From a virus (lineage: Duplodnaviria; Caudoviricetes): a DNA stretch of 62,918 nucleotides. Where the stretch lies: positions 1 through 62,918 of IMG/VR virus record IMGVR_UViG_3300048848_000227; one strand, given 5' to 3'. Position numbers and translations under genes: made by a program. Below are positions 8,267 to 31,436 of this stretch, one piece after another. Under the pieces are notes generated by a model. The model worked only from the letters and a program-made list of their open reading frames with translations, was not told where the DNA came from and did not search any database. Numbering within the stretch: the first letter of the stretch is position 1; the number at the start of each line of letters is the position of its first letter.

Positions 8267-8295
8267 TTGACAAATTTGTAAAACGGTCTTAATTT
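8267..8295 (+). promoter_or_regulatory. Sigma70 promoter/operator, copy 1 (PR-like)
   Basis: TTGACA-17bp-TAATTT; 20-mer TTGACAAATTTGTAAAACGG repeated 4x. Confidence 0.8.
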
Positions 8296-10250: not shown

Positions 10251-10313
10251 CCAACACCCACCAACCACCACAACCAGCCCTACTGCTTCAGCAGTAGGGT
10301 GAGAGGAGAAGCT

Positions 10314-10853
10314 ATGACCGATTTTATCCCGTTCCAGAAAATCCCGCGCCTCAAGAGAGGTTGCGTCATCACCGAAAAGCTTGACGGCACCAATGCGCAG
10401 ATCGTCATCGATGCGGAAGGCAACATCCGCGCCGGCTCACGCAATCGGTGGATCACGCCGGAAGACGACAACTACGGCTTCGCCGGCTGGGTCAGCCGCA
10501 ATGCAGAAGAGCTCCGGAAGCTCGGCGAAGGCCAGCATTTTGGCGAGTGGTGGGGCAACGGCATCCAGCGCGGCTACGGCCTGAAGGAAAAACGCTTCTC
10601 GCTGTTCAATTCCGGACGATGGTCAGATCCCGCAGTTCGTCCCGCCTGCTGCGACGTAGTGCCGGTCCTCTACGCCGGCCACTTTGCGACGGACACCGTC
10701 GACATGGTGCTGGACAACCTCAAGGAGACGGGTTCGCAGGCCGCGCCAGGCTTCCCGCGCCCGGAAGGCGTCATCGTATTCCTGCCGGCATCCAACCACC
10801 TCTACAAGGTTCTGGCCGAAAACGATGACGTACCGAAGGTGCTCGCAGCATGA
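10314..10853 (+). CDS. ATP-dependent RNA ligase (Rnl2-like nucleotidyltransferase domain)
   Basis: TEKLDGTNA (KxDGxN), GSRNR, FGEWWG, EGVIV. Confidence 0.85.
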   Translation: MTDFIPFQKIPRLKRGCVITEKLDGTNAQIVIDAEGNIRAGSRNRWITPEDDNYGFAGWVSRNAEELRKLGEGQHFGEWWGNGIQRGYGLKEKRFSLFNSGRWSDPAVRPACCDVVPVLYAGHFATDTVDMVLDNLKETGSQAAPGFPRPEGVIVFLPASNHLYKVLAENDDVPKVLAA

Positions 10854-15594: not shown

Positions 15595-15834
15595 ATGGCC
15601 GATTACAATTTCGACCGCATGCACCTGAATGTCAGGCAGACGCGTCAAGCGATTGACAGCCCGGCGCTGCTGCATGGCGCGTTCATCTGGAGCGAAACGC
15701 CGCAGGGTGAGGACTATTGGCGCGCGCAAACCACCGCGCCGACGCATGAGGGGCGATCGACGCTGGCCTACATGGCTGCGCAGTCCATTGAGCTGGAGAT
15801 CCAGTCTGAGTTCTACAGGGGGTTCGCGGCATGA
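15595..15834 (+). CDS. Hypothetical protein
   Basis: AFIWSETPQGEDYW motif; AGAGGAGA RBS. Confidence 0.7.
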   Translation: MADYNFDRMHLNVRQTRQAIDSPALLHGAFIWSETPQGEDYWRAQTTAPTHEGRSTLAYMAAQSIELEIQSEFYRGFAA

Positions 15835-16322
15835 GCACACCAGCCAACGACAACCGCCCCGCCAGCTACGATCAGCAGCTACAAGAACACGCCGCGCTCG
15901 TGCGCCGCTTGGCTCGTAAAATCTCCTACCGTGACGCAGACGACGTCGCGCAGGACATCATGCTGTGCGCCGTGAGAACCCACAAGCACCGCGACGAACG
16001 CTATCCTTTCTCGACTTGGCTTCATGTCGTCGCAGGTAACGTGCGCGTTGAACGGTATCGGGCAAGCACCACCAACATGCGTGCCGGCGTGACCGTGGCG
16101 GACGACACGGAACATGAGGGTGCCGTTCAGCCAAGCCAGCACATCCAGGCGGAACTTGCAGAAGTGCTGCGGACGCTCTCCGGTACGCGTGATGGCGAGG
16201 CTTTGGTACGGCTAGCCATGGGCGACAAGCTAGAGGAGGTCGCCGCGGACTTTGGGGTTAGTCGTGAACGCGTACGCCAGCTAGCGCAGCGCGCTCGCCA
16301 GTCGTTGCAGGTGGCAGCATGA
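15831..16322 (+). CDS. ECF/sigma70-like factor
   Basis: DADDVAQD and FSTWL (region 2); LEEVAADFGVSRERVRQL (region 4). Confidence 0.8.
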   Translation: MSTPANDNRPASYDQQLQEHAALVRRLARKISYRDADDVAQDIMLCAVRTHKHRDERYPFSTWLHVVAGNVRVERYRASTTNMRAGVTVADDTEHEGAVQPSQHIQAELAEVLRTLSGTRDGEALVRLAMGDKLEEVAADFGVSRERVRQLAQRARQSLQVAA

Positions 16323-18223: not shown

Positions 18224-18252
18224 TTGACAAATTTGTAAAACGGACTTAGGTT
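18224..18252 (+). promoter_or_regulatory. Sigma70 promoter/operator, copy 2 (upstream of rtcB)
   Basis: TTGACA-17bp-TAGGTT with the identical 20-mer. Confidence 0.8.
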
Positions 18253-18286
18253 GCGCGTACCGACACCATGGAAGAGGAGAATTGCG

Positions 18287-19459
18287 ATGACCTACAAGAT
18301 TTTTGGTCAGCACGATGAGAAGACCAGAAGACAAATGGAAACCTGCATGGCAACAGGCAGCGCGGCTGCTGGCGTGCTATGCGCAGACGGCCATCTGGGC
18401 TACGCGCACCCGATCGGCGGCGTCGTTGGCTACACGGACCACATCTCAATCAGCGGCGTAGGTTTTGACATCGCCTGCGGCAACATGGCCGTACGCCTTG
18501 ATATGCCCTATGCTGACATCTCATCGCGCATCGGCGTGATCCTTCAGGACATCCAGTCCGTCGTCAGCTTCGGCGTGGGGCGCAAGAACGAAGAGCGCGT
18601 CGAACACGCTCTGTTTGATAAGGACGACCTCTGGCTCGCTGCCGATGTCGCTGACCTGAAGTCTATGGCGCAAGGCCAGCTTGGAACCGTCGGATCCGGC
18701 AACCATTACGTCGACATCTTCGAAGGCGATGACGGTGCTACATGGATCGGAGTGCACTTCGGGTCGCGCGGGCTCGGCCACAAGATCACGACCAAGTACC
18801 TAGGCCTAGCCGGCGCAAAGGACGGCATGGAAGTCCCGCCCGCGCTGCTACCGTCCGACAGCGACATGGGGCGCGGCTATCTCGCTGGTATCGAATTGGG
18901 CGGTCTATACGCATACGCCGGCCGCGAATGGGTTATTGAGCGCGTCCGCAAGATCATTGGCGGCGCCGTGACGTTCTCCGTCCACAATCATCACAATTTC
19001 GCATGGCGCGAGACGCACGATGGCGTTGACATGTGGGTCGTACGCAAGGGCGCTACCCCATCGTTCCCAGGCCAGTATGGATTCGTTGGCGGCTCAATGG
19101 GCGATGATGCTGTCATCCTGCGCGGTGTGGATTCACCGGAGAGCAAGGGCGCGCTCTACTCCACGGTCCACGGCGCTGGCCGAGTCATGTCGCGCACCGA
19201 AGCACGCGGGCGTTTCGTCAAGGTTGACGGCAAGAAGATCCGTCAGCCGGGCCGCGTGCGCCACGACGAATGGCAGAATTGGATCCGTGAAAAGGGCGTT
19301 ACCGTCCTCGGTAGCGATCTCGACGAAGCCCCGCAGGCCTACCGCCGCCTCCCCGAAGTCTTGGCCGCTCATGCCGGCACGATTGCCATCAAGCATGTGC
19401 TGCACCCGCGCGGCGTCATTATGGCCGGCGCCAACGAGTTCGACCCGTACAAGGATTGA
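18287..19459 (+). CDS. rtcB: RtcB-family RNA ligase
   Basis: DGHLGY, GFDIACG, LGTVGSGNHY, HFGSRGLG, HN, RKGA, GSMG, HGAGR, DEAPQAY. Confidence 0.95.
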   Translation: MTYKIFGQHDEKTRRQMETCMATGSAAAGVLCADGHLGYAHPIGGVVGYTDHISISGVGFDIACGNMAVRLDMPYADISSRIGVILQDIQSVVSFGVGRKNEERVEHALFDKDDLWLAADVADLKSMAQGQLGTVGSGNHYVDIFEGDDGATWIGVHFGSRGLGHKITTKYLGLAGAKDGMEVPPALLPSDSDMGRGYLAGIELGGLYAYAGREWVIERVRKIIGGAVTFSVHNHHNFAWRETHDGVDMWVVRKGATPSFPGQYGFVGGSMGDDAVILRGVDSPESKGALYSTVHGAGRVMSRTEARGRFVKVDGKKIRQPGRVRHDEWQNWIREKGVTVLGSDLDEAPQAYRRLPEVLAAHAGTIAIKHVLHPRGVIMAGANEFDPYKD

Positions 19460-23873: not shown

Positions 23874-24295
23874 CCACACCTAAAGACCTGGCGCCATACA
23901 CGTGCTTGGCCAGTGATCTGGCTCCGCACAGGAGACCCAGTCACGGCCTTCGCTGCTCGAACATGACGGGAGAAGTCGCGCTTGGTCGCGTACGCTGCGC
24001 CAACGGGCTGTTTCAGTATAAGGCTTACTGCATGGACTGCGGCCGCGTCGGCACAAACTTCCTGCATAGCGACGTCGAGGGCCTGGACGTTGATCGGATC
24101 CCGGTAATTCGAGATCGTGACAAGGTGCCATGTGAGCGTTGCGGATCGGAAGAAGGTTCTGAGGCCCACCACTGGGCGCCGTCCCACCTCTTCGAAGACT
24201 CGCTGGAATGGCCGACCAGCCATTTATGCCGGAAGTGCCACATGCTTTGGCATTCCGTCGTCACGCCGAAAATGCACGCAAGGAGGGCAGCATGA
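23870..24295 (+). CDS. Zn-finger protein (HNH-like C-terminus)
   Basis: CMDC, CERCG..HHW..LCRKCH. Confidence 0.65.
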   Translation: MTTPKDLAPYTCLASDLAPHRRPSHGLRCSNMTGEVALGRVRCANGLFQYKAYCMDCGRVGTNFLHSDVEGLDVDRIPVIRDRDKVPCERCGSEEGSEAHHWAPSHLFEDSLEWPTSHLCRKCHMLWHSVVTPKMHARRAA

Positions 24296-26697
24296 GGCCA
24301 ACATCAACAAGCCCATATGCATCCGTGGGGCAGCGGCTCGTCAACATGGGTTACTCCGCTGTGCCGGTTCTTCCGGGGAGCAAGCGGCCGGGCCAGTACG
24401 CACGAGGGCAATGGTACGGGGAGAACGACTGGCAGCGCTTCGGCGACCGGTTGCCGACGCACTTTGAAGTTCCCATCTGGTCGACTTGGCCGGACGCGGG
24501 CGTCTGCATCGTGCTGGACGACATCGTCAAGGTCGTCGACATCGACTCGGACGACGAAGACCTGATTGCCGCCGTTCTGTCCGTCATGCCTCATAGCCCT
24601 GTGCGCAAGCGCGGGGCTAAAGGCTTTTCGGTGTTCTACCGCGGATCGCCGGAGATCGTCTCAAAGCCATTCAACATCAAGCTGGCCGGCGCTTCAAAGC
24701 CCATGCGCGCTGTGGATCTACTGGCCAAGGGGCGGCAGACGGTGCTGCCCCCTACGATCCACCCGGAAACAGACGCGCCGTACGTCTGGATTGACGACGA
24801 CTCGCTTGCGGATCTTGAGCCGCAAGACTTGCCGGTGCTGCCCGATGACATCGACGTGAGGATTGCGGCGGCTCTTGAGCCATTCGGCTTTACCGAGGAG
24901 GAGGTCAAGCGCGACTTCATAGGGGTGGAGACGGGCGACAGCGTATGGCGCGAGATCAAGGATACGGCGCTGGCCAACCTGCACTTGTGGGTTCCGGATC
25001 TCGGCATCCCCCTTGGCCGGCATACGGGCCGCGGCGCCTATCGCGGTGCGGCGACGTGGCGGGGCGGCGACGGGTTCAACGTGTCGTTCCATCAGGACGG
25101 CATTCGGGACATGGCGCAGGATCTCGGCCTGACGCCTATCGACGTGGTGATGAAAGCCCGCGGCATGACGGACATGGACGCGCTGGCTTGGCTGAAGAGC
25201 AAGCTTGGCTATGTCGACCCATGGCTGCCGTCGCTCGACTTCAGCCTGATCATTAAGAACGGCTACGCGAAGAAAGGGCCGGTCATTGATGAGGCAGATC
25301 TGCAGGAGGAGCCGGAAGTCGTGGATGCGGAGACGGGCGAGATCCTGCCAGCAACCACGGCAACGACAGCGGCAACAGCAGCAACAATAGCACCAACCGC
25401 GATTGCAACGACGGCCGGAGGCCTGCCCCCGCACCTCTGCGAGGTGCCCGGCCTCGTCGGCCAGATCGTCGAATGGCTGAACCTAACGGCCCGCAACCCG
25501 TCGCCAACGCTCAACCTCGGCGCGGCGCTGGCCTATGTCGGGGCGCTGGCCGGTAGGCGCTACGAGGGGCCGACAGGGTTGCGCAGCAACGTCTACGTCG
25601 TTGGCCTGGCCGCATCAGGCTTCGGTAAGGAGCATCCGCGTGCGGGCGTCAAGGCACTGGCCAGCGCAAGCGGCACTCTGGCCAAGTTCTTCGGCGGCAA
25701 CAAGATCTCGTCGTCGTCCGCGCTCCGCAACCGCGTCAAGCAGAACCCATCGCTCGTCTATATGATCGACGAGTTCGGCGGGTTCATGCGCAAGGTGACG
25801 TCGCCGAAGTCGGGCAACCACGAGAAGGAAATCGCGGAAGACTTGCTGGAAATGACCGGCACGGCCGGGTCCATCTTCATGGGTGCCGACTACGCGCAGA
25901 ACCTTGCCGAGCCGATCCACAACCCGAATGTCTGCATCTATGGCACGTCGACGCCGGACGCCTTCTGGAAGGCTCTGGCCAGCGGTAGCGTGGCCGACGG
26001 CTTCTTGCCCCGCTTCATCATGCTGGACGCAGGCGTGACCAGACCGGAGCCTCGAGACCCGCAGGCATCTGTCAACAACCCGCCGTCTGCGTTGATAGAG
26101 GACATCCAGTCCTTCGCGGTGCACAAGTTCGGCAGCAAGCTGAACGGTGTTCTCGCGTCCGGCAGTATGTCCATGAAGCCGATACCTGCCGAGTGGGGCG
26201 AAGGCGCAAAGAGGGTTTTCGATCTGCTCGTCGATCGCATGTTCAAGACGATGGACTCGAGTTCGAAAGACCTGGAGCCGATCTATGCGCGTGTCGCGGA
26301 GAACAGCGTGCGGCTTGCGCTTATCATTGCGGCGGGTGTGGACTACCAGCGGCCCGTCATATCCGAGGGCATCATGCAGTGGGCTGCGGACGTCGCGCAG
26401 AGGTCATCGCTTATGATGATCGAGCAGGCCGAAGAGCGCATGGCGGACAATGACAGGCAGGCCGAATACAAGCGTGTGAGGTCGATCATCGATAGGGCTG
26501 GACCAAAGGGAACCGTCGCCAACGACGTGGCCCGTGCGCTGAACGGGATCATGGACAGGCGCCGCATGCACGACATCATAGACCAGCTGACGGAGGCTGG
26601 CCAGATCGTGGAAGGCATCGTGCGGGCGCAGAACGGGCGCAGCCTAAAGCGGCTGTGGAGCGACAAGAATGCCCCTAGTATGTTAGATGCGGCTTAA
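24292..26697 (+). CDS. Prim-Pol primase fused to a P-loop helicase-like domain
   Basis: VVDID, GRQTVLPPTIHP, ASGFGKE, MIDEFG, DGFLPRF. Confidence 0.88.
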   Translation: MRPTSTSPYASVGQRLVNMGYSAVPVLPGSKRPGQYARGQWYGENDWQRFGDRLPTHFEVPIWSTWPDAGVCIVLDDIVKVVDIDSDDEDLIAAVLSVMPHSPVRKRGAKGFSVFYRGSPEIVSKPFNIKLAGASKPMRAVDLLAKGRQTVLPPTIHPETDAPYVWIDDDSLADLEPQDLPVLPDDIDVRIAAALEPFGFTEEEVKRDFIGVETGDSVWREIKDTALANLHLWVPDLGIPLGRHTGRGAYRGAATWRGGDGFNVSFHQDGIRDMAQDLGLTPIDVVMKARGMTDMDALAWLKSKLGYVDPWLPSLDFSLIIKNGYAKKGPVIDEADLQEEPEVVDAETGEILPATTATTAATAATIAPTAIATTAGGLPPHLCEVPGLVGQIVEWLNLTARNPSPTLNLGAALAYVGALAGRRYEGPTGLRSNVYVVGLAASGFGKEHPRAGVKALASASGTLAKFFGGNKISSSSALRNRVKQNPSLVYMIDEFGGFMRKVTSPKSGNHEKEIAEDLLEMTGTAGSIFMGADYAQNLAEPIHNPNVCIYGTSTPDAFWKALASGSVADGFLPRFIMLDAGVTRPEPRDPQASVNNPPSALIEDIQSFAVHKFGSKLNGVLASGSMSMKPIPAEWGEGAKRVFDLLVDRMFKTMDSSSKDLEPIYARVAENSVRLALIIAAGVDYQRPVISEGIMQWAADVAQRSSLMMIEQAEERMADNDRQAEYKRVRSIIDRAGPKGTVANDVARALNGIMDRRRMHDIIDQLTEAGQIVEGIVRAQNGRSLKRLWSDKNAPSMLDAA

Positions 26698-27549: not shown

Positions 27550-27578
27550 TTGACAAATTTGTAAAACGGCCCTATATA
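27550..27578 (+). promoter_or_regulatory. Sigma70 promoter/operator, copy 3
   Basis: TTGACA-17bp-TATATA with the identical 20-mer. Confidence 0.8.
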
Positions 27579-27612
27579 CGATAGACCAACACCACGACGA
27601 GGAGATGATAGC

Positions 27613-27870
27613 ATGGCGGACAGAGCGATTGATGATGGTGGGTACGCTTACCCGTTCAAGTTGGAGCACGAATTCGATAAGGAGTCTGGGGTGCCTACGC
27701 GCACAGAAGTATTCCCGGGCATGAGCCTGCGTGACCATTTCGCTGGCTTGGCTTTACCGGTGGCAAGCAGGCAGTACAGCGTAGATTCGGCTAAGTACCA
27801 CCATCATGTGGCTAGCGAATGCTACGCGCAAGCAGACGCCATGATCGCAGCCCGCAAGGTCACAGCATGA
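27613..27870 (+). CDS. Hypothetical phage protein
   Basis: GG.AYP..GMSLRDHFAG..YAQADAMIAAR motif common in phages. Confidence 0.8.
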   Translation: MADRAIDDGGYAYPFKLEHEFDKESGVPTRTEVFPGMSLRDHFAGLALPVASRQYSVDSAKYHHHVASECYAQADAMIAARKVTA

Positions 27871-28814
27871 CCCAGCCTGACGATCAGATACTTGACGCCT
27901 CTGGGCGAGTGGCCTTCACGGGCGATCAGCCTCACCCATATCGCACCAACACTCGGTTTCGTCGAGTTGATGGTGTTTGGGAGCCGATTGTCGACGCTGC
28001 TGAAGCACGCACATCTAAGCGAGTCTCAACGCCGGATGAGCGCGCCGCAGGTAGGGTGATTTCGGCAACAAAGGCAAAAGCGGAGAAACGAGCCTTGAGC
28101 AAGATCGTTAAGGTCATAGCCAAACGCCAGGACATCGGGGATCCGTCCATTGTGCAAAGCCGTAGCGAAGACTTTCCCCTGGTCGAGGCCTTGCGTCGCG
28201 ACGGACAGGAGGAATTAATCAAGGTGGTGCGGCGCTATCGCAAGCTTGTGGCTCTTTGCGAGGCGGAGCCTTTGAAGGGGCTGGATTACAGCAAGTCCGA
28301 TGGTGGAGAAATCGTCAGGGAGAGCAACAGGCTCACGCCAGAAGCCGACATAGACGAGGCGTCAGCTACAAATTGGCAGAATGTTCCTGACGGGGAATTG
28401 AAGGTTTCGACGAAAATCAAGAAGAGCAAGGGCGCGTATCCGATACCGTCTCGGCGTACGGTCGTAGCTGCCAATGATAACCTGGCGCAATCTCACGTCG
28501 TCCGAACGGAGAGCCTACACGTCAAACTCACAGACGAAGTGCTTAACCAGCATATAGACGCAAAGCCGGTATTGGCAGAACTGCGTGCTTCCCTTGGGCC
28601 ACTGGTTGAGCCTTTCGAGGATGCCGCACTTGGCGGGCGCTCCTACACGGATATCGGCAGGGTTCGTGGCGAGGCGGCAAAGCCAGCCGTAGCTGGCAAG
28701 ACATTAGTGGGCATGGCCATCGGCACTATAGCCATAAAATGGCAGGAGATCGATAAGAAGGCAAAGATTGCCGAGTCCATCGCATTGGCCCGCTTTCGCA
28801 ATCGAGCTGCGTAG
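27867..28814 (+). CDS. Hypothetical protein, possible late-gene regulator
   Basis: 315 aa; weak HTH-like GRSYTDIG near the C-terminus; last gene before the late region (function from position only). Confidence 0.6.
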   Translation: MTQPDDQILDASGRVAFTGDQPHPYRTNTRFRRVDGVWEPIVDAAEARTSKRVSTPDERAAGRVISATKAKAEKRALSKIVKVIAKRQDIGDPSIVQSRSEDFPLVEALRRDGQEELIKVVRRYRKLVALCEAEPLKGLDYSKSDGGEIVRESNRLTPEADIDEASATNWQNVPDGELKVSTKIKKSKGAYPIPSRRTVVAANDNLAQSHVVRTESLHVKLTDEVLNQHIDAKPVLAELRASLGPLVEPFEDAALGGRSYTDIGRVRGEAAKPAVAGKTLVGMAIGTIAIKWQEIDKKAKIAESIALARFRNRAA

Positions 28815-28823
28815 GGTCCGCCA

Positions 28824-29986
28824 CGCGCACTCAAGTCCCTAACGGTTGAGAGGACTATCCTCAAACCGTTGCGGTCACGACCGCCCCGCCGCCATGCTGC
28901 ACTTCGTTGCAGCCGCTGAGTGTGCGGGTAACGATTGGCAAGGGTGCTGGATTTCTAGTTACCCAGGCTTGCCAACACTATAACGAAGATGCCGCGGCAC
29001 CAGTGATGGTGATCGTCTGCAGGGATAGCCGAGCGCAAATCGGAACCCGATGGCATTTGAACGCGTGTTGCGTCACGCTTCCATCTTCGTTTGCTTATTC
29101 GTGGTGCTGTCGGCCTTCAGGGGTTCGAAAACCAATACCATGGCGCCGGCACGCTACGAGCCAATTGCATGAGGAAGTGGGCCGCAAGGCCAAGATATAG
29201 CAGTGGACGCCCCAGTGAAAGCGACCTGCCATCGGCGGCCCTTGCGGCCTTAAGGAAGCGTGATGCACCGGATACGATGACTGGACACAGTGCCTGAATT
29301 AACAGGCTACTGCACCTCATGCATACCCTTTGGCCATTTACCGTTAGATGCATGCGGCTTGGACGCTGCATTCGGTTGGCCATACTTACAACGAAGATGA
29401 CAAAGGCGGCGACCCCTGCCGGGCTGATGTCGAACCAGACCCGGCCATCTTCGTTTGACCACACACAGGACCGTGAATGGCTTTGCCACGACGGATACCC
29501 AAAGAGCCAGGCTGTACGCCGGCCGCCTGTCGATACACGATGACGTTGGGTGATTGGTGAGCCTTTATAGGTCGGTTCGATTCCGGCACGTTGTCGTTAC
29601 CCCATCGCTGCCCGCTCCGTCTCCTCGGCGCCGCAGCGATCCTGCTGGAGGTTGAGTGCGCCAGATGCTTGTCATCTATAAGCCGCGCTCCCTCCAGCTT
29701 TCGTTTATTCTTGGAGCCCACCATGCTGACACTCACGCACCGTGCAGCCTCAATGGCGCGCCTACTCGTCACCGCATGCGCCTTCCTCATGGTGCTGTCT
29801 GTCGTTGCATCGTGCTCGACCGATCGGCAGTGGGCTGACGTGGCTACGATGGTGCGGCATACGTATTTGGTTCGATAAGTTTCATATTCTCGCTGGATTC
29901 TCGACCTCTTCAGCGGGGATTGTTGGGGTGGGCTTCGGCTCACCCCAACCGACATGAGGTCGATCCCAACATGGAGGTCGAGAACC
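28824..29986 (+). ncRNA. Candidate large structured ncRNA or array of RNA domains
   Basis: No credible CDS; consecutive domains closed by 6-11 bp stems with G-U pairs and A/C/U-rich linkers. Confidence 0.6.
29537..29597 (+). ncRNA. tRNA-like element lacking the anticodon arm
   Basis: 10-bp outer stem; D-arm GGGT-GATTGGTGA-GCCT; T-arm GTCGG-TTCGATT-CCGGC. Confidence 0.6.
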
Positions 29987-30658
29987 ATGGGAACTTTCAT
30001 TGATTTAACTGGGCAGCGCTTTGGTAGGCTCTTTCTTACGGGAAGAGGTGCAAACCGCGGACGTCGCGTGACGTGGAATTTCGTATGCGACTGTGGCGTT
30101 ACAGGAAACACGGTTGCGTCATACGTGACCACTGGTCGTCAGGTCAGTTGCGGGTGTTACCACAAGGAGGTGGTGGCATCGCTGGGCCGGGCTACGGCTA
30201 CACATGGAGCGACGCGAGGCGGAGTTCAGACGCCAACGTATTCCTCGTGGAGCGCTATGCGAGAGCGGGTTCTTTGCGACACCCACCATGCCTACGCCAG
30301 GTATGGCGGTAAGGGCGTAGAGATTTGCGACAGGTGGCTAGAAGGCGAAGACGGATTGACTGGATACGAGTGCTTCCTCGTTGACATGGGCGAGCGCCCG
30401 CAAGGCCACTCTATCGACCGGATTGATACTCATGGGCACTATGAGCCGGGCAACTGCAGATGGGCAACGCCAGATATACAGGCGAGAAATGCCACCGACA
30501 CGAAGATGAGCGGTATTGACGTTGGCATCCTGCTGTCGATGGTGGCCAACGACAATGCATCTTTATCTACGCTATCTGCAAGGTTTGGCATATCTAAGCA
30601 GCATGCTTGGAAGATAAAGACAGGTAAGAGATGGGCCGCATCGACTCTCGATCTGTAG
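29987..30658 (+). CDS. Free-standing HNH homing-endonuclease-like protein
   Basis: DLTGQRFGRL, CDCG, SCGC, HSIDRID..YEPGNCRWAT. Confidence 0.85.
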   Translation: MGTFIDLTGQRFGRLFLTGRGANRGRRVTWNFVCDCGVTGNTVASYVTTGRQVSCGCYHKEVVASLGRATATHGATRGGVQTPTYSSWSAMRERVLCDTHHAYARYGGKGVEICDRWLEGEDGLTGYECFLVDMGERPQGHSIDRIDTHGHYEPGNCRWATPDIQARNATDTKMSGIDVGILLSMVANDNASLSTLSARFGISKQHAWKIKTGKRWAASTLDL

Positions 30659-30939
30659 AAGCTAAAGCCTATCGAAAGCTCTACAAGACGGCACAATGGC
30701 GCTCCATCCGGGAGCGCCAGCTTGCGGAGCATCCGCTTTGCCAGTGGTGTGTCGAGCGTGAGGAAGTCACTGAGGCGACCGAAGTTCATCACTCAGATGG
30801 TGGGCACAAGGGCGATGTCACGAGGTTCTTTTCTGGCCCCTTCCTCTCGACCTGCAAGCCTTGCCACTCCTCGAGAGGCCAGCGAGAGGACGCAGGGCAG
30901 ACGGTCGTGGCCTACGGGGCGGATGGGTGGCCCCTCTAG
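30631..30939 (+). CDS. Packaging-associated HNH endonuclease
   Basis: HPLCQWC..ATEVHH..CKPCH immediately before terS. Confidence 0.88.
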   Translation: MGRIDSRSVEAKAYRKLYKTAQWRSIRERQLAEHPLCQWCVEREEVTEATEVHHSDGGHKGDVTRFFSGPFLSTCKPCHSSRGQREDAGQTVVAYGADGWPL

Positions 30940-31040: not shown

Positions 31041-31436
31041 ATGGCACGGCAGAGAACGCCAGCCGCCAAGGCAGCTGTCACTGGCGCTGACAAGAAGAAC
31101 AAGGGCCGTTTTGAGGAGAGAAACGAGCCTGTCGTTGACGGAGAACTCGGCGAGCCGTTCGCATGGCTGTCCGAAAACGCAAAAGAGGCTTGGCGCGAAC
31201 TGGCTGAAGAAATTCCGTGGCTCAACAAGAGCCACCGCGGCGTCCTTTCGATAGCGGCAAAAGTCCGCGGACGAATGATGGGCGATATGGTCAACGGCGA
31301 GACGGATGTCGGCGTCCAGGCCATGAATCTTTACAGGCAATGCTTGGGATCAATGGGAGCTACACCAGCAGACGCTTCGAAGGCGGGAGCTAAGCCAGAT
31401 GGCGAAAAGACCGACCCTGCCGACGCTTACTTCTGA
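31041..31436 (+). CDS. terS: Terminase small subunit
   Basis: P.WLSENAKEAW..MGATPADASK; lies before terL. Confidence 0.8.
   Translation: MARQRTPAAKAAVTGADKKNKGRFEERNEPVVDGELGEPFAWLSENAKEAWRELAEEIPWLNKSHRGVLSIAAKVRGRMMGDMVNGETDVGVQAMNLYRQCLGSMGATPADASKAGAKPDGEKTDPADAYF

What the first reader, a model, noticed from the sequence alone, without database searches (positions are those of the whole stretch)
28824..29986. ~1.15 kb ORF-poor tract folding as a string of RNA domains before the packaging genes
Stems seen: 28824-33/28917-26 closing a 4-way junction with three hairpins; 28935-42/28968-75; 28982-91/29082-91; 29166-74/29315-23 enclosing 29180-89/29240-49; 29331-36/29377-82; 29390-99/29446-55; a tRNA-like unit; and further stems to 29986. 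G-U pairs favour the + strand, and linkers are A/C/U-rich. Large phage ncRNAs (GOLLD, ROOL) and tRNA clusters are known in phages, but I do not recognise this one. It may be a new large ncRNA or a processed small-RNA array, possibly a substrate of the two phage RNA ligases (inference).
Basis: partly seen in the sequence, partly recalled or inferred. Interest (0 to 1): 0.85.

Follow-up and report, generated by a model that had tools for sequence, protein, structure and literature searches.

The report
Phage structured-RNA cassette array, no tRNAs
The tract is mostly a string of conserved folded RNA modules that sits where related rhizobial phages keep their tRNA genes, framed by two RNA elements missing from the RNA-family library, and it also holds one small protein gene and the leader of the next gene.

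Summary
Nine of twelve segments fold far better than shuffles, with z from -2.3 to -6.4; six coding controls gave -1.6 to 0.0.

It is not one anonymous large RNA. Window 28817-29713 is a modular array on the + strand. It is framed by element A (three hairpins ending in GGGUAAC) and element B (a hairpin showing a CUCCUC loop, then an intrinsic terminator). Neither matches Rfam 15. Both recur in related viral contigs and Rhizobiaceae prophages, one copy per locus, with compensatory changes.

In 36 of 39 sources B follows A at 65-667 nt; the window has the longest gap. In relatives the gap often holds tRNA-Met. Here it holds non-tRNA cassettes:
- Y1, a 4-way junction with a GNRA loop
- C
- X2
- Z, a tRNA-like unit with no anticodon arm

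Window 29723-29878 is a real small lipoprotein-like gene. Window 29890-29987 is the 5' leader of an HNH endonuclease gene.

RtcB was absent from 10 of 10 relatives that carry A and B, so the RNA-ligase link is unsupported. No RNA-seq run was available. Parts of this tract were noted earlier in the scan on this same window.

The parts
27550..27579 (+). Context: promoter/operator-like site (TTGACA, 17 nt, TATATA; palindrome ACAAATTTGT). It lies upstream of the 85-aa ORF (27613), the 331-aa ORF (27819-28814) and the tract.
   Evidence: It is one of four exact copies of TTGACAAATTTGT in the window; the other three are at 8267, 18224 and 55315. No + strand terminator-like site lies between it and element B (one search covers 28000-30800).
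28817..28935 (+). Element A. It has hairpin P2 (28841-28870, with a conserved UGA bulge), hairpin P3 (28871-28884) and a nearly invariant 3' hairpin (28885-28928), then the single-stranded tail GUAAC.
   Evidence: Model R1 scores 115.7 bits here and finds one copy in each of 38 sources. Across 36 distinct sequences and 25 pairs, 99.3% of cells are paired, 15 pairs changed on both sides, and 0 of 500 shuffles reach this. z is -5.5.
28935..28975 (+). X1 hairpin (TTGGCAAG / CTTGCCAA).
   Evidence: The 8-bp stem is perfect and z is -2.4. L032 starts a similar hairpin right after its A.
28980..29093 (+). Y1 cassette. It is a 4-way junction closed by AACGAAGATG / CATCTTCGTT, and its first inner hairpin carries a GUGA (GNRA) loop.
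   Evidence: There are 13 distinct family members of 106-120 nt. Seven of 18 predicted pairs changed on both sides. It is 71% identical to L047.
29094..29163 (+). W' hairpin. Its 5' arm TATTCGTGGTGCTGTCGG is shared with a roughly 190-nt module in L025 and L047.
   Evidence: z is -2.6 on + and 0.0 on -. The shared arm was seen.
29164..29327 (+). C cassette, closed by TGCATGAGG / CCTCATGCA and enclosing 29180-89/29240-49.
   Evidence: It is 80% identical to L041, where it directly follows A. Of 41 shared pairs, 6 are compensatory, 1 changed on one side and 0 are broken. z is -4.2. An 18-mer from its core matches only L041 among the viral contigs.
29328..29389 (+). X2 hairpin (TGGCCA ... TGGCCA, with an inner stem).
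   Evidence: It is 79% identical to L044, where it lies between tRNA-Met and B. One pair is compensatory, 3 changed on one side and 0 of 13 are broken. z is -3.6.
29390..29457 (+). Y2. It has the same 10-bp closing stem as Y1 around a different 46-nt interior.
   Evidence: Inverted repeat I12 and direct repeat D5. z is -4.55.
29458..29535 (+). Spacer without significant structure.
   Evidence: z is -0.75.
29536..29597 (+). Z, a tRNA-like 3-way unit with no anticodon arm. It has the acceptor-like stem CGATGACGT / ACGTTGTCG, a D-like hairpin and the T-arm GTCGG TTCGATT CCGGC. It lies directly 5' of B.
   Evidence: No tRNA is called by ARAGORN at default settings or by Rfam; there is only a 16-bit tRNA-Sec hit. 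Analogous units with ACGAC.../...GTCGTT closing stems precede B in L002, L035 and L059.
29599..29713 (+). Element B. SL1 (29604-29640) shows UCUCCUC in its loop. A terminator hairpin follows (29644-29698), then TTTCGTTT.
   Evidence: Model R2 hits at 29601-29713. Across 34 distinct sequences and 21 pairs, 97.2% of cells are paired, 11 pairs changed on both sides, and 0 of 500 shuffles reach this. CUCCUC is unpaired in 30 of 31 minimum-energy folds. z is -6.2.
29723..29878 (+). Small protein gene of 51 aa. It has GGAG 6 nt before the ATG, a signal-like N-terminus and the lipobox-like motif VASC.
   Evidence: Against L047 there are 21 identical, 17 synonymous and 9 non-synonymous codons, and the differences by codon position are 5/8/23. 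The region is unstructured, z +0.4. It has no Pfam or PHROGs match.
29890..29987 (+). T leader, the 5' UTR of the HNH endonuclease gene. TTCTCGACCTC pairs with GAGGTCGAGAA, which overlaps the GGAGG ribosome-binding site. It encloses a GC hairpin with a UUCG loop (29922-29949).
   Evidence: Inverted repeats I6 and I7. z is -6.35. It is conserved ahead of different endonuclease-like ORFs in six other loci in the leader alignment (L007, L011, L023, L025, L043, L048), and blastn also matches it in L015 and L029. The base of the inner hairpin covaries.
29988..30658 (+). Context: HNH endonuclease gene. Its start is probably the ATG at 29988, not 29954.
   Evidence: It matches phrog_374 at 8e-55, and the match begins at residue 10 of the 234-aa ORF.

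Best explanation
Window 28817-29713 is the non-coding 3' part of a + strand phage operon that makes a set of stable, structured RNAs.

Transcription probably starts at the operator-controlled promoter at 27550 and runs through the 85-aa and 331-aa genes (inferred). It then passes element A, a variable set of cargo cassettes and element B, whose second hairpin is the intrinsic terminator.

A and B are the constant frame of this locus in phages related to Sinorhizobium phage AP-16-3 and in Rhizobiaceae prophages. The space between them, and the space just after B, is a hot spot. Relatives carry tRNA-Met and other tRNAs there. This phage carries only non-tRNA structured cassettes: X1, Y1, W', C, X2, Y2 and Z.

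The precursor is probably cut at the conserved single-stranded GUAAC/UAU after A and at the closing stems. RNase E, P, Z or III would do this, as in tRNA and rRNA operons (inferred).

The released B would be a trans-acting small RNA. Its exposed UCUCCUC loop can pair with GAGGAGA ribosome-binding sites, which mark this phage's early genes (inferred).

For: Shown by calls:
- A and B are conserved RNAs on the + strand with compensatory changes and G-U pairs.
- Each occurs once per locus.
- B follows A in 36 of 39 sources at 65-667 nt. The window has the longest gap, and L064 has a gap of about 5 nt.
- tRNAs in relatives are all on A's strand.
- tRNA-Met starts 6 nt after GGGUAAC in 10 sources, so A's 3' hairpin must lie in the tRNA precursor's 5' leader.
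- B starts directly after the CCA end in many sources.
- B carries a terminator hairpin and a U tract in all 31 distinct copies.
- Cassettes C, X2, Y1 and Z recur elsewhere with their pairing kept.
- The closing stems AACGAAG/CTTCGTT and AAGCAAG/CTTGCTT differ by a double compensatory change.
- A promoter-like site lies at 27550.
- GAGGAGA followed 3-10 nt later by ATG occurs 19 times against 0.81 expected. Eighteen of the 19 lie outside the late structural block.
- No Rfam family matches.
Against: No transcript data could be had, so transcription, ends, processing and stability are all inferred.

The promoter assignment rests on one consensus match 1.27 kb upstream. My own promoter scan covered only 28000-30800 and found none there.

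In 12 sources tRNAs lie after B's terminator. Either the terminator is leaky or there are further promoters.

A's 3' hairpin is almost invariant, with 7 of 16 pairs never varying. That degree of conservation hints at a constraint beyond folding.

The alignments used for the pair counts were fitted to the models, and most members were found through sequence patterns. This inflates conservation and makes the Y closing stem invariant by ascertainment.

The anti-SD idea is weak. Any CUCCUC pairs with ordinary ribosome-binding sites, and my duplex ranking did not single out targets: the 85-aa ORF start ranked 6th of 257 among many spurious ORF starts.
Confidence: 0.55

Rival explanations
1. Regulatory boundary rather than RNA genes. 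A would be a cis-acting RNA element, nut- or put-like or a processing and stability element for the upstream gene. B's terminator would be the barrier between the early operon and the late packaging genes. Read-through or antitermination would then decide late expression, as in the lambda pR'-6S-tR' arrangement (recalled). The cassettes would be passengers.
For: A always begins right after the stop codon of the last early-region gene, although that gene belongs to at least three unrelated families. HNH endonuclease and terminase-type genes follow B on the same strand in the window and in the relatives read. A has several adjacent hairpins with nearly invariant bulges and an invariant tail. In Shiga-toxin lambdoid phages tRNA genes also sit just downstream of the late promoter (recalled). 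HK022 putRNA is a known cis-acting antiterminator (PMC9378689; search listing and start of abstract only).
Against: No late promoter or pause site was identified. A is 1.27 kb from the only recognisable promoter in the window. B has a conserved exposed loop motif, which a mere terminator does not need. Nothing here tests an interaction with RNA polymerase.
Confidence: 0.2
2. Decayed tRNA array. The cassettes would be remnants of former tRNA genes and spacers that still fold but no longer act. Only A and B, if anything, would be functional.
For: The window has no tRNA gene, while 20 of 32 relatives have them at this place. Z keeps a T-arm that is 18 of 19 identical, by eye, to a tRNA-like stretch in L044, and it keeps an acceptor-like stem. 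Relaxed ARAGORN gives a poor tRNA call there.
Against: C, X2 and Y1 do not look like tRNAs. They recur in other phages with compensatory changes and no broken pairs. Y1 has a conserved GNRA hairpin in 13 distinct sequences. Z-like units without an anticodon arm recur in L002, L035 and L059.
Confidence: 0.12
3. One large ncRNA of about 0.9 kb, GOLLD- or ROOL-like, whose domains act together.
For: The structured domains are contiguous on one strand and bounded by conserved 5' and 3' elements. The whole-tract fold gives -375.8 kcal/mol and keeps A, X2, Y2 and B as local domains.
Against: The distance from A to B varies from about 5 to 667 nt. The interior is swapped for tRNAs or other cassettes among relatives. 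No Rfam large-RNA family matches.
Confidence: 0.06
4. DNA-level elements such as operators, recombination sites or single-strand DNA hairpins, not RNA.
For: The cores of A's 3' hairpin and of the T leader are near-perfect palindromes, and they are more invariant than folding alone requires. Module junctions are sharp, as at recombination sites.
Against: G-U pairs are common on the + strand only. In A's helix 1, two pairs are G-U in 12 and 13 of 36 sequences, and in helix 3 one pair is G-U in 7. z is much better on + for A, W' and Z. The loop of A's 3' hairpin varies by 1 nt in length. tRNA-Met adjacency puts A inside a transcript.
Confidence: 0.04

Closest known systems
Stable RNAs of unknown function in the phage T4 tRNA gene cluster (species 1 and 2, rnaC/rnaD); recalled, no paper retrieved (one search found none)
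   Same: These are non-tRNA structured RNAs encoded among phage tRNA genes. They are presumably co-transcribed and cut out of the same precursor.
   Different: There is no sequence or model relation. Here a fixed A...B frame exists with or without tRNAs, and this phage has no tRNA at all.
3' external transcribed spacer of glyW-cysT-leuZ (3'ETS-leuZ) and small RNAs derived from mRNA 3' UTRs, in E. coli and Salmonella; recalled (one search listed only papers that mention it)
   Same: Like these, B lies directly after a tRNA's 3' end in many relatives, shares the operon's terminator, and would be released by processing rather than made from its own promoter.
   Different: 3'ETS-leuZ is a sponge for host small RNAs. 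B shows an anti-Shine-Dalgarno loop, and in the window it follows a tRNA-like unit, not a tRNA. No function was tested.
Alphaproteobacterial small RNAs with C/U-rich anti-SD loops (AbcR1/2, NfeR1 of the ar14 family, CcsR 'cuckoo' RNAs); recalled (one search lists AbcR and NfeR1 papers)
   Same: Both have a hairpin loop with a CUCCUC-type motif followed by an intrinsic terminator, and both occur in Rhizobiales.
   Different: No ar-family or other Rfam model matches B at E up to 10. B is phage-borne and tied to A.
HK022 put RNA, lambda nut sites and the 6S leader (PMC9378689, listing only; the rest recalled)
   Same: Adjacent conserved hairpins in a phage transcript lie upstream of a terminator that precedes downstream gene blocks.
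   Different: A is not promoter-proximal in the window. There is no sequence similarity, and no action on RNA polymerase was tested.
GOLLD and ROOL large phage ncRNAs (Rfam)
   Same: They are large, multi-domain and phage-associated, and they are often near tRNA genes (recalled).
   Different: There is no Rfam match. The modules here vary independently.

Membership tests
tRNA (Rfam RF00005; ARAGORN) | Cloverleaf with a 7-bp acceptor stem, D arm, anticodon arm and T arm, scoring above the model threshold. | tested here: not met
   ARAGORN finds 0 genes in the whole window. Rfam shows no RF00005 match at E up to 10, only tRNA-Sec at 16 bits against a gathering score of 47 at 29539-29595. With its threshold relaxed to 80%, ARAGORN calls a mismatched 'tRNA-Val' at 29508-29595.
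tmRNA (one-piece or two-piece) | A tRNA-like domain together with a tag reading frame. | tested here: not met
   ARAGORN with the tmRNA search on finds none in the window, the tract or the related loci.
GOLLD, ROOL and all other Rfam 15 families | A covariance-model match at or near the gathering score. | tested here: not met
   There are 0 matches at gathering scores in the window. At E up to 10 over 28600-30200 there are only four sub-threshold chance hits. Relatives give only tRNAs and one ar35 hit elsewhere.
Terminator-bearing trans-acting small RNA with an anti-SD seed | An intrinsic terminator at the 3' end. | tested here: met
   The hairpin and U tract are in all 31 distinct B copies. 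In the terminator helix, 7 of 13 pairs changed on both sides.
Terminator-bearing trans-acting small RNA with an anti-SD seed | A conserved single-stranded seed exposed in a loop. | tested here: met
   CUCCUC is invariant and unpaired in 30 of 31 minimum-energy folds.
Terminator-bearing trans-acting small RNA with an anti-SD seed | Expression as a discrete RNA and regulation of targets. | not testable with these tools
   No RNA run was listed. The duplex scan was not discriminating.
tRNA-operon spacer RNA (3'ETS type) | It lies in one transcript with tRNAs, directly after a tRNA's 3' end and before the terminator. | tested here: inconclusive
   The position is met in relatives: B follows ...CCGCAACCA in L004, L005, L009-L011, L013, L027 and L028. 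In the window no tRNA is present and Z holds that place. Co-transcription was not tested.
put/nut-type antitermination RNA | Promoter-proximal hairpins that make RNA polymerase resistant to terminators. | not testable with these tools
   Only position could be checked. A lies upstream of B's terminator in 36 of 39 sources, but 1.27 kb from the promoter-like site in the window.

The most novel reading that the evidence does not exclude
A...B is a phage 'RNA cassette holder'. It would be a conserved transcription and processing frame into which tRNA-sized structured RNAs are swapped by recombination at fixed junctions, after GGGUAACUAU and before CCCAU. In phages such as this one the cargo has moved from tRNAs to tRNA mimics and other folded RNAs (Z without an anticodon arm; the Y1 and C junction RNAs). 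These could act as decoys or substrates in the conflict over host tRNA-cleaving defences and RNA repair. Meanwhile B would shut off the phage's own early genes through their GAGGAGA ribosome-binding sites.
Probability: 0.12. Interest if true: 0.8.

Novelty: new variant of a known kind. Interest (0 to 1): 0.55.

Why it matters
Phage tRNA clusters are well known, but what else is made from them is hardly studied.

This locus adds candidate RNA families that Rfam 15 lacks. A, B and Y1 are supported by covariation, and C, X2 and Z have narrower support.

It shows that these families form a fixed frame with exchangeable cargo in a widespread group of rhizobial temperate phages, and that a phage can keep the frame with no tRNA in it.

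It also gives a testable candidate for a phage small RNA that targets ribosome-binding sites, and a defined place to look for tRNA mimics. The host group, legume symbionts and agrobacteria, is cultivable and has a sequenced isolated phage (AP-16-3), so the predictions can be tested directly.

Tried and rejected
RNA evidence: the look-up of sequencing runs listed one DNA holder, a soil metagenome that may be the source, and no RNA holder.

Database look-ups that found nothing:
- Rfam at gathering scores and at E up to 10.
- blastn against 50,697 phage records matched only the first 120 nt or so, in 2 records.
- An 18-mer from C's core matched only L041 among the viral contigs.

Promoter inside A's 3' end (TTGCAG ... 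TAACGAT): considered because conservation stops sharply after GGGTAACTAT. Rejected because tRNA-Met starts 6 nt later in 10 sources, which leaves no room for a transcription start.

ORF 29050-29172 (40 aa) as a gene: its IFVCLFVVLSA stretch is kept in L047 with two synonymous differences. Rejected for four reasons. The same DNA is the 3' strand of the Y stem and the 5' arm of W. L025 has a 1-nt deletion there. Y2 has a stop in that frame. The protein has no Pfam match.

The minus-strand 248-aa ORF (29386-30132) and five other weak ORFs have no Pfam match at E up to 0.1, apart from one 13-bit chance hit.

Cohesive-end (cos) site in the tract: not pursued. In AP-16-3 the homologous region is followed by HNH, and then the record ends.

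Ligase link: RtcB is in 0 of 10 relatives and PF09414 in 1 of 5.

Duplex search for B targets was not discriminating.

The Y closing-stem scans returned 73 and 118 loci, mostly chance. Of the 187 new loci, only 15 carry B.

Literature:
- The AP-16-3 paper (PMC10460002; passages found for tRNA, RNA and cos) mentions tRNA-Met and tRNA-fMet genes in related prophages and nothing about non-coding RNA.
- The searches gave background only.
- One search was badly posed and uninformative.
- I found no description of these elements.

Not done: the metagenome-contig scan, protein homology searches for the 51-aa and 331-aa proteins, structure prediction, and a third covariance model.
Full report
Context. 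The window is a 62.9-kb IMG/VR provirus record.
- The finding lies between a replication and early-gene block and the packaging genes.
- The early block holds the primase-polymerase at 24208-26697 and a 331-aa ORF of no known family at 27819-28814.
- The packaging side holds an HNH endonuclease at 29988-30658, a second HNH at 30631-30939, the small terminase at 31041 and the large terminase at 31399.
- The phage also encodes RtcB (18251-19459), an RNA ligase of family PF09414 (10299-10853) and a sigma factor (15831-16322).
- ARAGORN finds no tRNA or tmRNA in the whole window. Rfam finds nothing at gathering scores.

Observation.
- I split the tract into twelve segments and folded each against 200 dinucleotide shuffles.
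- Nine segments have z between -2.25 and -6.35 on the + strand. Six coding controls gave -1.6 to 0.0.
- Two segments are unstructured: 29458-29535 and 29713-29889.
- The + strand is clearly better for A, for 29094-29163 and for Z.
- Unpaired bases in the whole-tract fold are G-poor, 43 of 308.
- I set the segment borders knowing the stems, so the z-values are somewhat generous.

Relatives.
- blastn against phage records matched only the first 120 nt or so, in Sinorhizobium phage AP-16-3 and one unverified record. In AP-16-3 the match starts at the stop codon of the homologue of the 331-aa gene.
- A 19-mer from this element found 39 viral contigs. Ten were chance hits inside a coding gene, which left 32 loci with the earlier ones.
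- A relaxed 3' pattern found six Rhizobiaceae genomes: Agrobacterium, Rhizobium and Limoniibacter.

Element A (28817-28935).
- The alignment and RNAalifold give three hairpins. P2 is variable and carries a conserved UGA bulge. P3 is short. The third is a long, nearly invariant 3' hairpin, CCCGCCGYCA-U-GCUGCA(loop)UGCAGC-CGC-UGARYG-GCGGG, followed by GUAACUAU.
- Covariance model R1 finds exactly one copy in each of 38 sources.
- A sample of 151 genomes of the family gave 4 hits. A fifth was found only with the filters off.
- With the divergent copies L053 and L054 added there are 36 distinct sequences. Of 893 cells, 99.3% are paired, 15 of 25 pairs changed on both sides, and no shuffle of 500 reaches these values. 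Slid partners pair in only 29-46% of cells. This alignment was fitted to the model, which leans toward the structure.
In that variant it is near-isoenergetic with the three-hairpin fold (difference -9.8 to +1.7 kcal/mol in 13 sequences). Its 4-bp core is broken in 4 of 17. In the window it is the minimum-energy fold.

Element B (29599-29713).
- By eye and then by nhmmer, a second element lies downstream of A in 36 of 39 sources. Model R2 adds L021 and L046.
- All 31 distinct copies fold as SL1 plus a terminator hairpin with a U tract. The invariant CUCCUC is unpaired in the SL1 loop in 30 of 31.
- On 34 distinct sequences, 97.2% of cells are paired, 11 of 21 pairs changed on both sides, and 0 of 500 shuffles reach this.
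- R2 hit 11 of 151 family genomes. The stronger hits are true copies next to phage-type genes or tRNAs. Several weak ones look like plain terminators.

The frame and its cargo. The distance from A to B runs from about 5 nt (L064) through 65-68 nt (L019, L024) to 667 nt in the window, the longest seen.
- Sixteen sources have tRNA-Met between A and B. In ten of them it starts 6 nt after GGGUAAC.
- Twelve sources have tRNAs within 1.5 kb after B.
- Fifteen sources, including the window, have none.
- All tRNAs are on A's strand.
- In many sources B begins directly after the tRNA's CCA end.
- Conservation stops exactly after GGGTAACTAT, and unrelated sequences follow.
- A must therefore be transcribed as the leader of whatever follows it. 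The A-B interval behaves as an insertion and exchange hot spot.

The window's cargo.
- Y1 (28980-29093) belongs to a family of 13 distinct sequences of 106-120 nt. Members have a 9-10 bp closing stem, a first inner hairpin with a GUGA tetraloop whose stem covaries, and two more variable hairpins. One chance match, L203, was dropped. The closing stem is invariant by the way the members were found. Shorter hairpins at the same place in L019, L024, L008 and L053 close with AAGCAAG/CTTGCTT, a double compensatory change.
- Y2 (29390-29457) uses the same closing stem around a different interior.
- C (29164-29327) is 80% identical to a module that directly follows A in L041. All 13 differing paired columns keep pairing, with 6 compensatory pairs and 0 broken.
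- X2 recurs between tRNA-Met and B in Agrobacterium burrii.
- Z (29536-29597) has an acceptor-like stem, a D-like hairpin and a T-arm, but a 7-nt linker where the anticodon arm should be. Analogous three-way units with related closing stems precede B in L002, L035 and L059.

The last 270 nt are not part of the array.
- The ORF 29723-29878 has a GGAG ribosome-binding site and a signal-like N-terminus ending in VASC.
- It is conserved in Rhizobium sp. Leaf384 with 17 synonymous against 9 non-synonymous codon differences, and 23 of 36 differences fall at third positions. It is a protein gene inserted after B's terminator.
- L029 and L015 go straight from B to the leader.
- 29890-29987 is a conserved leader. 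In it TTCTCGACCTC can pair with GAGGTCGAGAA across the ribosome-binding site of the HNH endonuclease gene. It precedes different endonuclease-like ORFs in other loci.

Transcription and a possible role for B.
- The window has four exact copies of TTGACAAATTTGT. The copy at 27550 has TATATA 17 nt downstream. It precedes the 85-aa and 331-aa ORFs and then the tract.
- GAGGAGA followed 3-10 nt later by ATG occurs 19 times against 0.81 expected: 14 in the 6-28 kb early block, 4 at 55-61 kb and 1 in the late block. The window's B loop, UCUCCUC, is its exact complement.
- This suggests, and does not show, that B damps translation of early genes.

Ligases. RtcB is absent from 10 of 10 relatives at least 92% complete that carry A and B, including L041 (which has C) and L022 (which has Y1). 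PF09414 is present in 1 of 5. The elements therefore do not depend on the ligases.

Verdict.
- The tract is best read in three parts: a phage stable-RNA operon segment with two RNA elements not in Rfam (A and B) framing exchangeable structured cargo, a small lipoprotein-like gene, and a translational leader.
- Function is inferred. Expression could not be tested.

Noticed in passing
L002, L046, L047, L059, L064 (C-terminal tails of the gene upstream of A); L029/L015, L025, L035 (N-termini of the ORFs after the T leader): The peptide motif (A/S)NDN(L/Y/F/N), written with varied codons, recurs. It resembles the start of the alphaproteobacterial SsrA tag (recalled). Some tails also end in LAA, VAA or AAA, for example ..AANDNLMRAINLAA* in L046 and ..AANDNLMAAMKKVAA* in L064.
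   Followed up: no
window 6231-61238: GAGGAGA followed 3-10 nt later by ATG occurs 19 times against 0.81 expected. It is almost confined to the early and accessory genes, with only one case (40303) in the late structural block.
   Followed up: partly
window 8267, 18224, 27550, 55315: There are four exact copies of TTGACAAATTTGT, a -35 hexamer overlapping the palindrome ACAAATTTGT. At 27550 it is followed 17 nt later by TATATA. This looks like a repressor-controlled promoter set.
   Followed up: partly
L004 1512-1625: A relative carries a match to the Rfam alphaproteobacterial small RNA ar35 (45.9 bits, gathering score 45) about 2.4 kb upstream of its 331-aa homologue. The window shows no such match.
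   Followed up: no
L032, about 70-110 nt after its element A: There is a hybrid stretch..AATCCCCATTGCAGCCGTCCTGCGGGTAAC... It joins a B-like 5' end to an A-like 3' end, which suggests recombination between the two elements.
   Followed up: no
L003 (MT839724, 'Bacteriophage sp.', human fecal sample): This 4-kb unverified record carries A and B of the Rhizobiaceae-phage type, near-identical to L006. That is an odd source for a rhizobial phage and may reflect contamination.
   Followed up: no
window 10299-10853 and 18251-19459: The phage has two RNA ligases of different chemistry (PF09414 and RtcB) but no tRNA gene. RtcB was absent from all ten relatives checked.
   Followed up: partly
L047 and L025, after Y1 or A: A module of about 190 nt closed by TATTCGTGGTG ... 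CACCACGATA is shared by L025 and L047. The window keeps only its 5' arm, in a shorter hairpin at 29094-29163.
   Followed up: no
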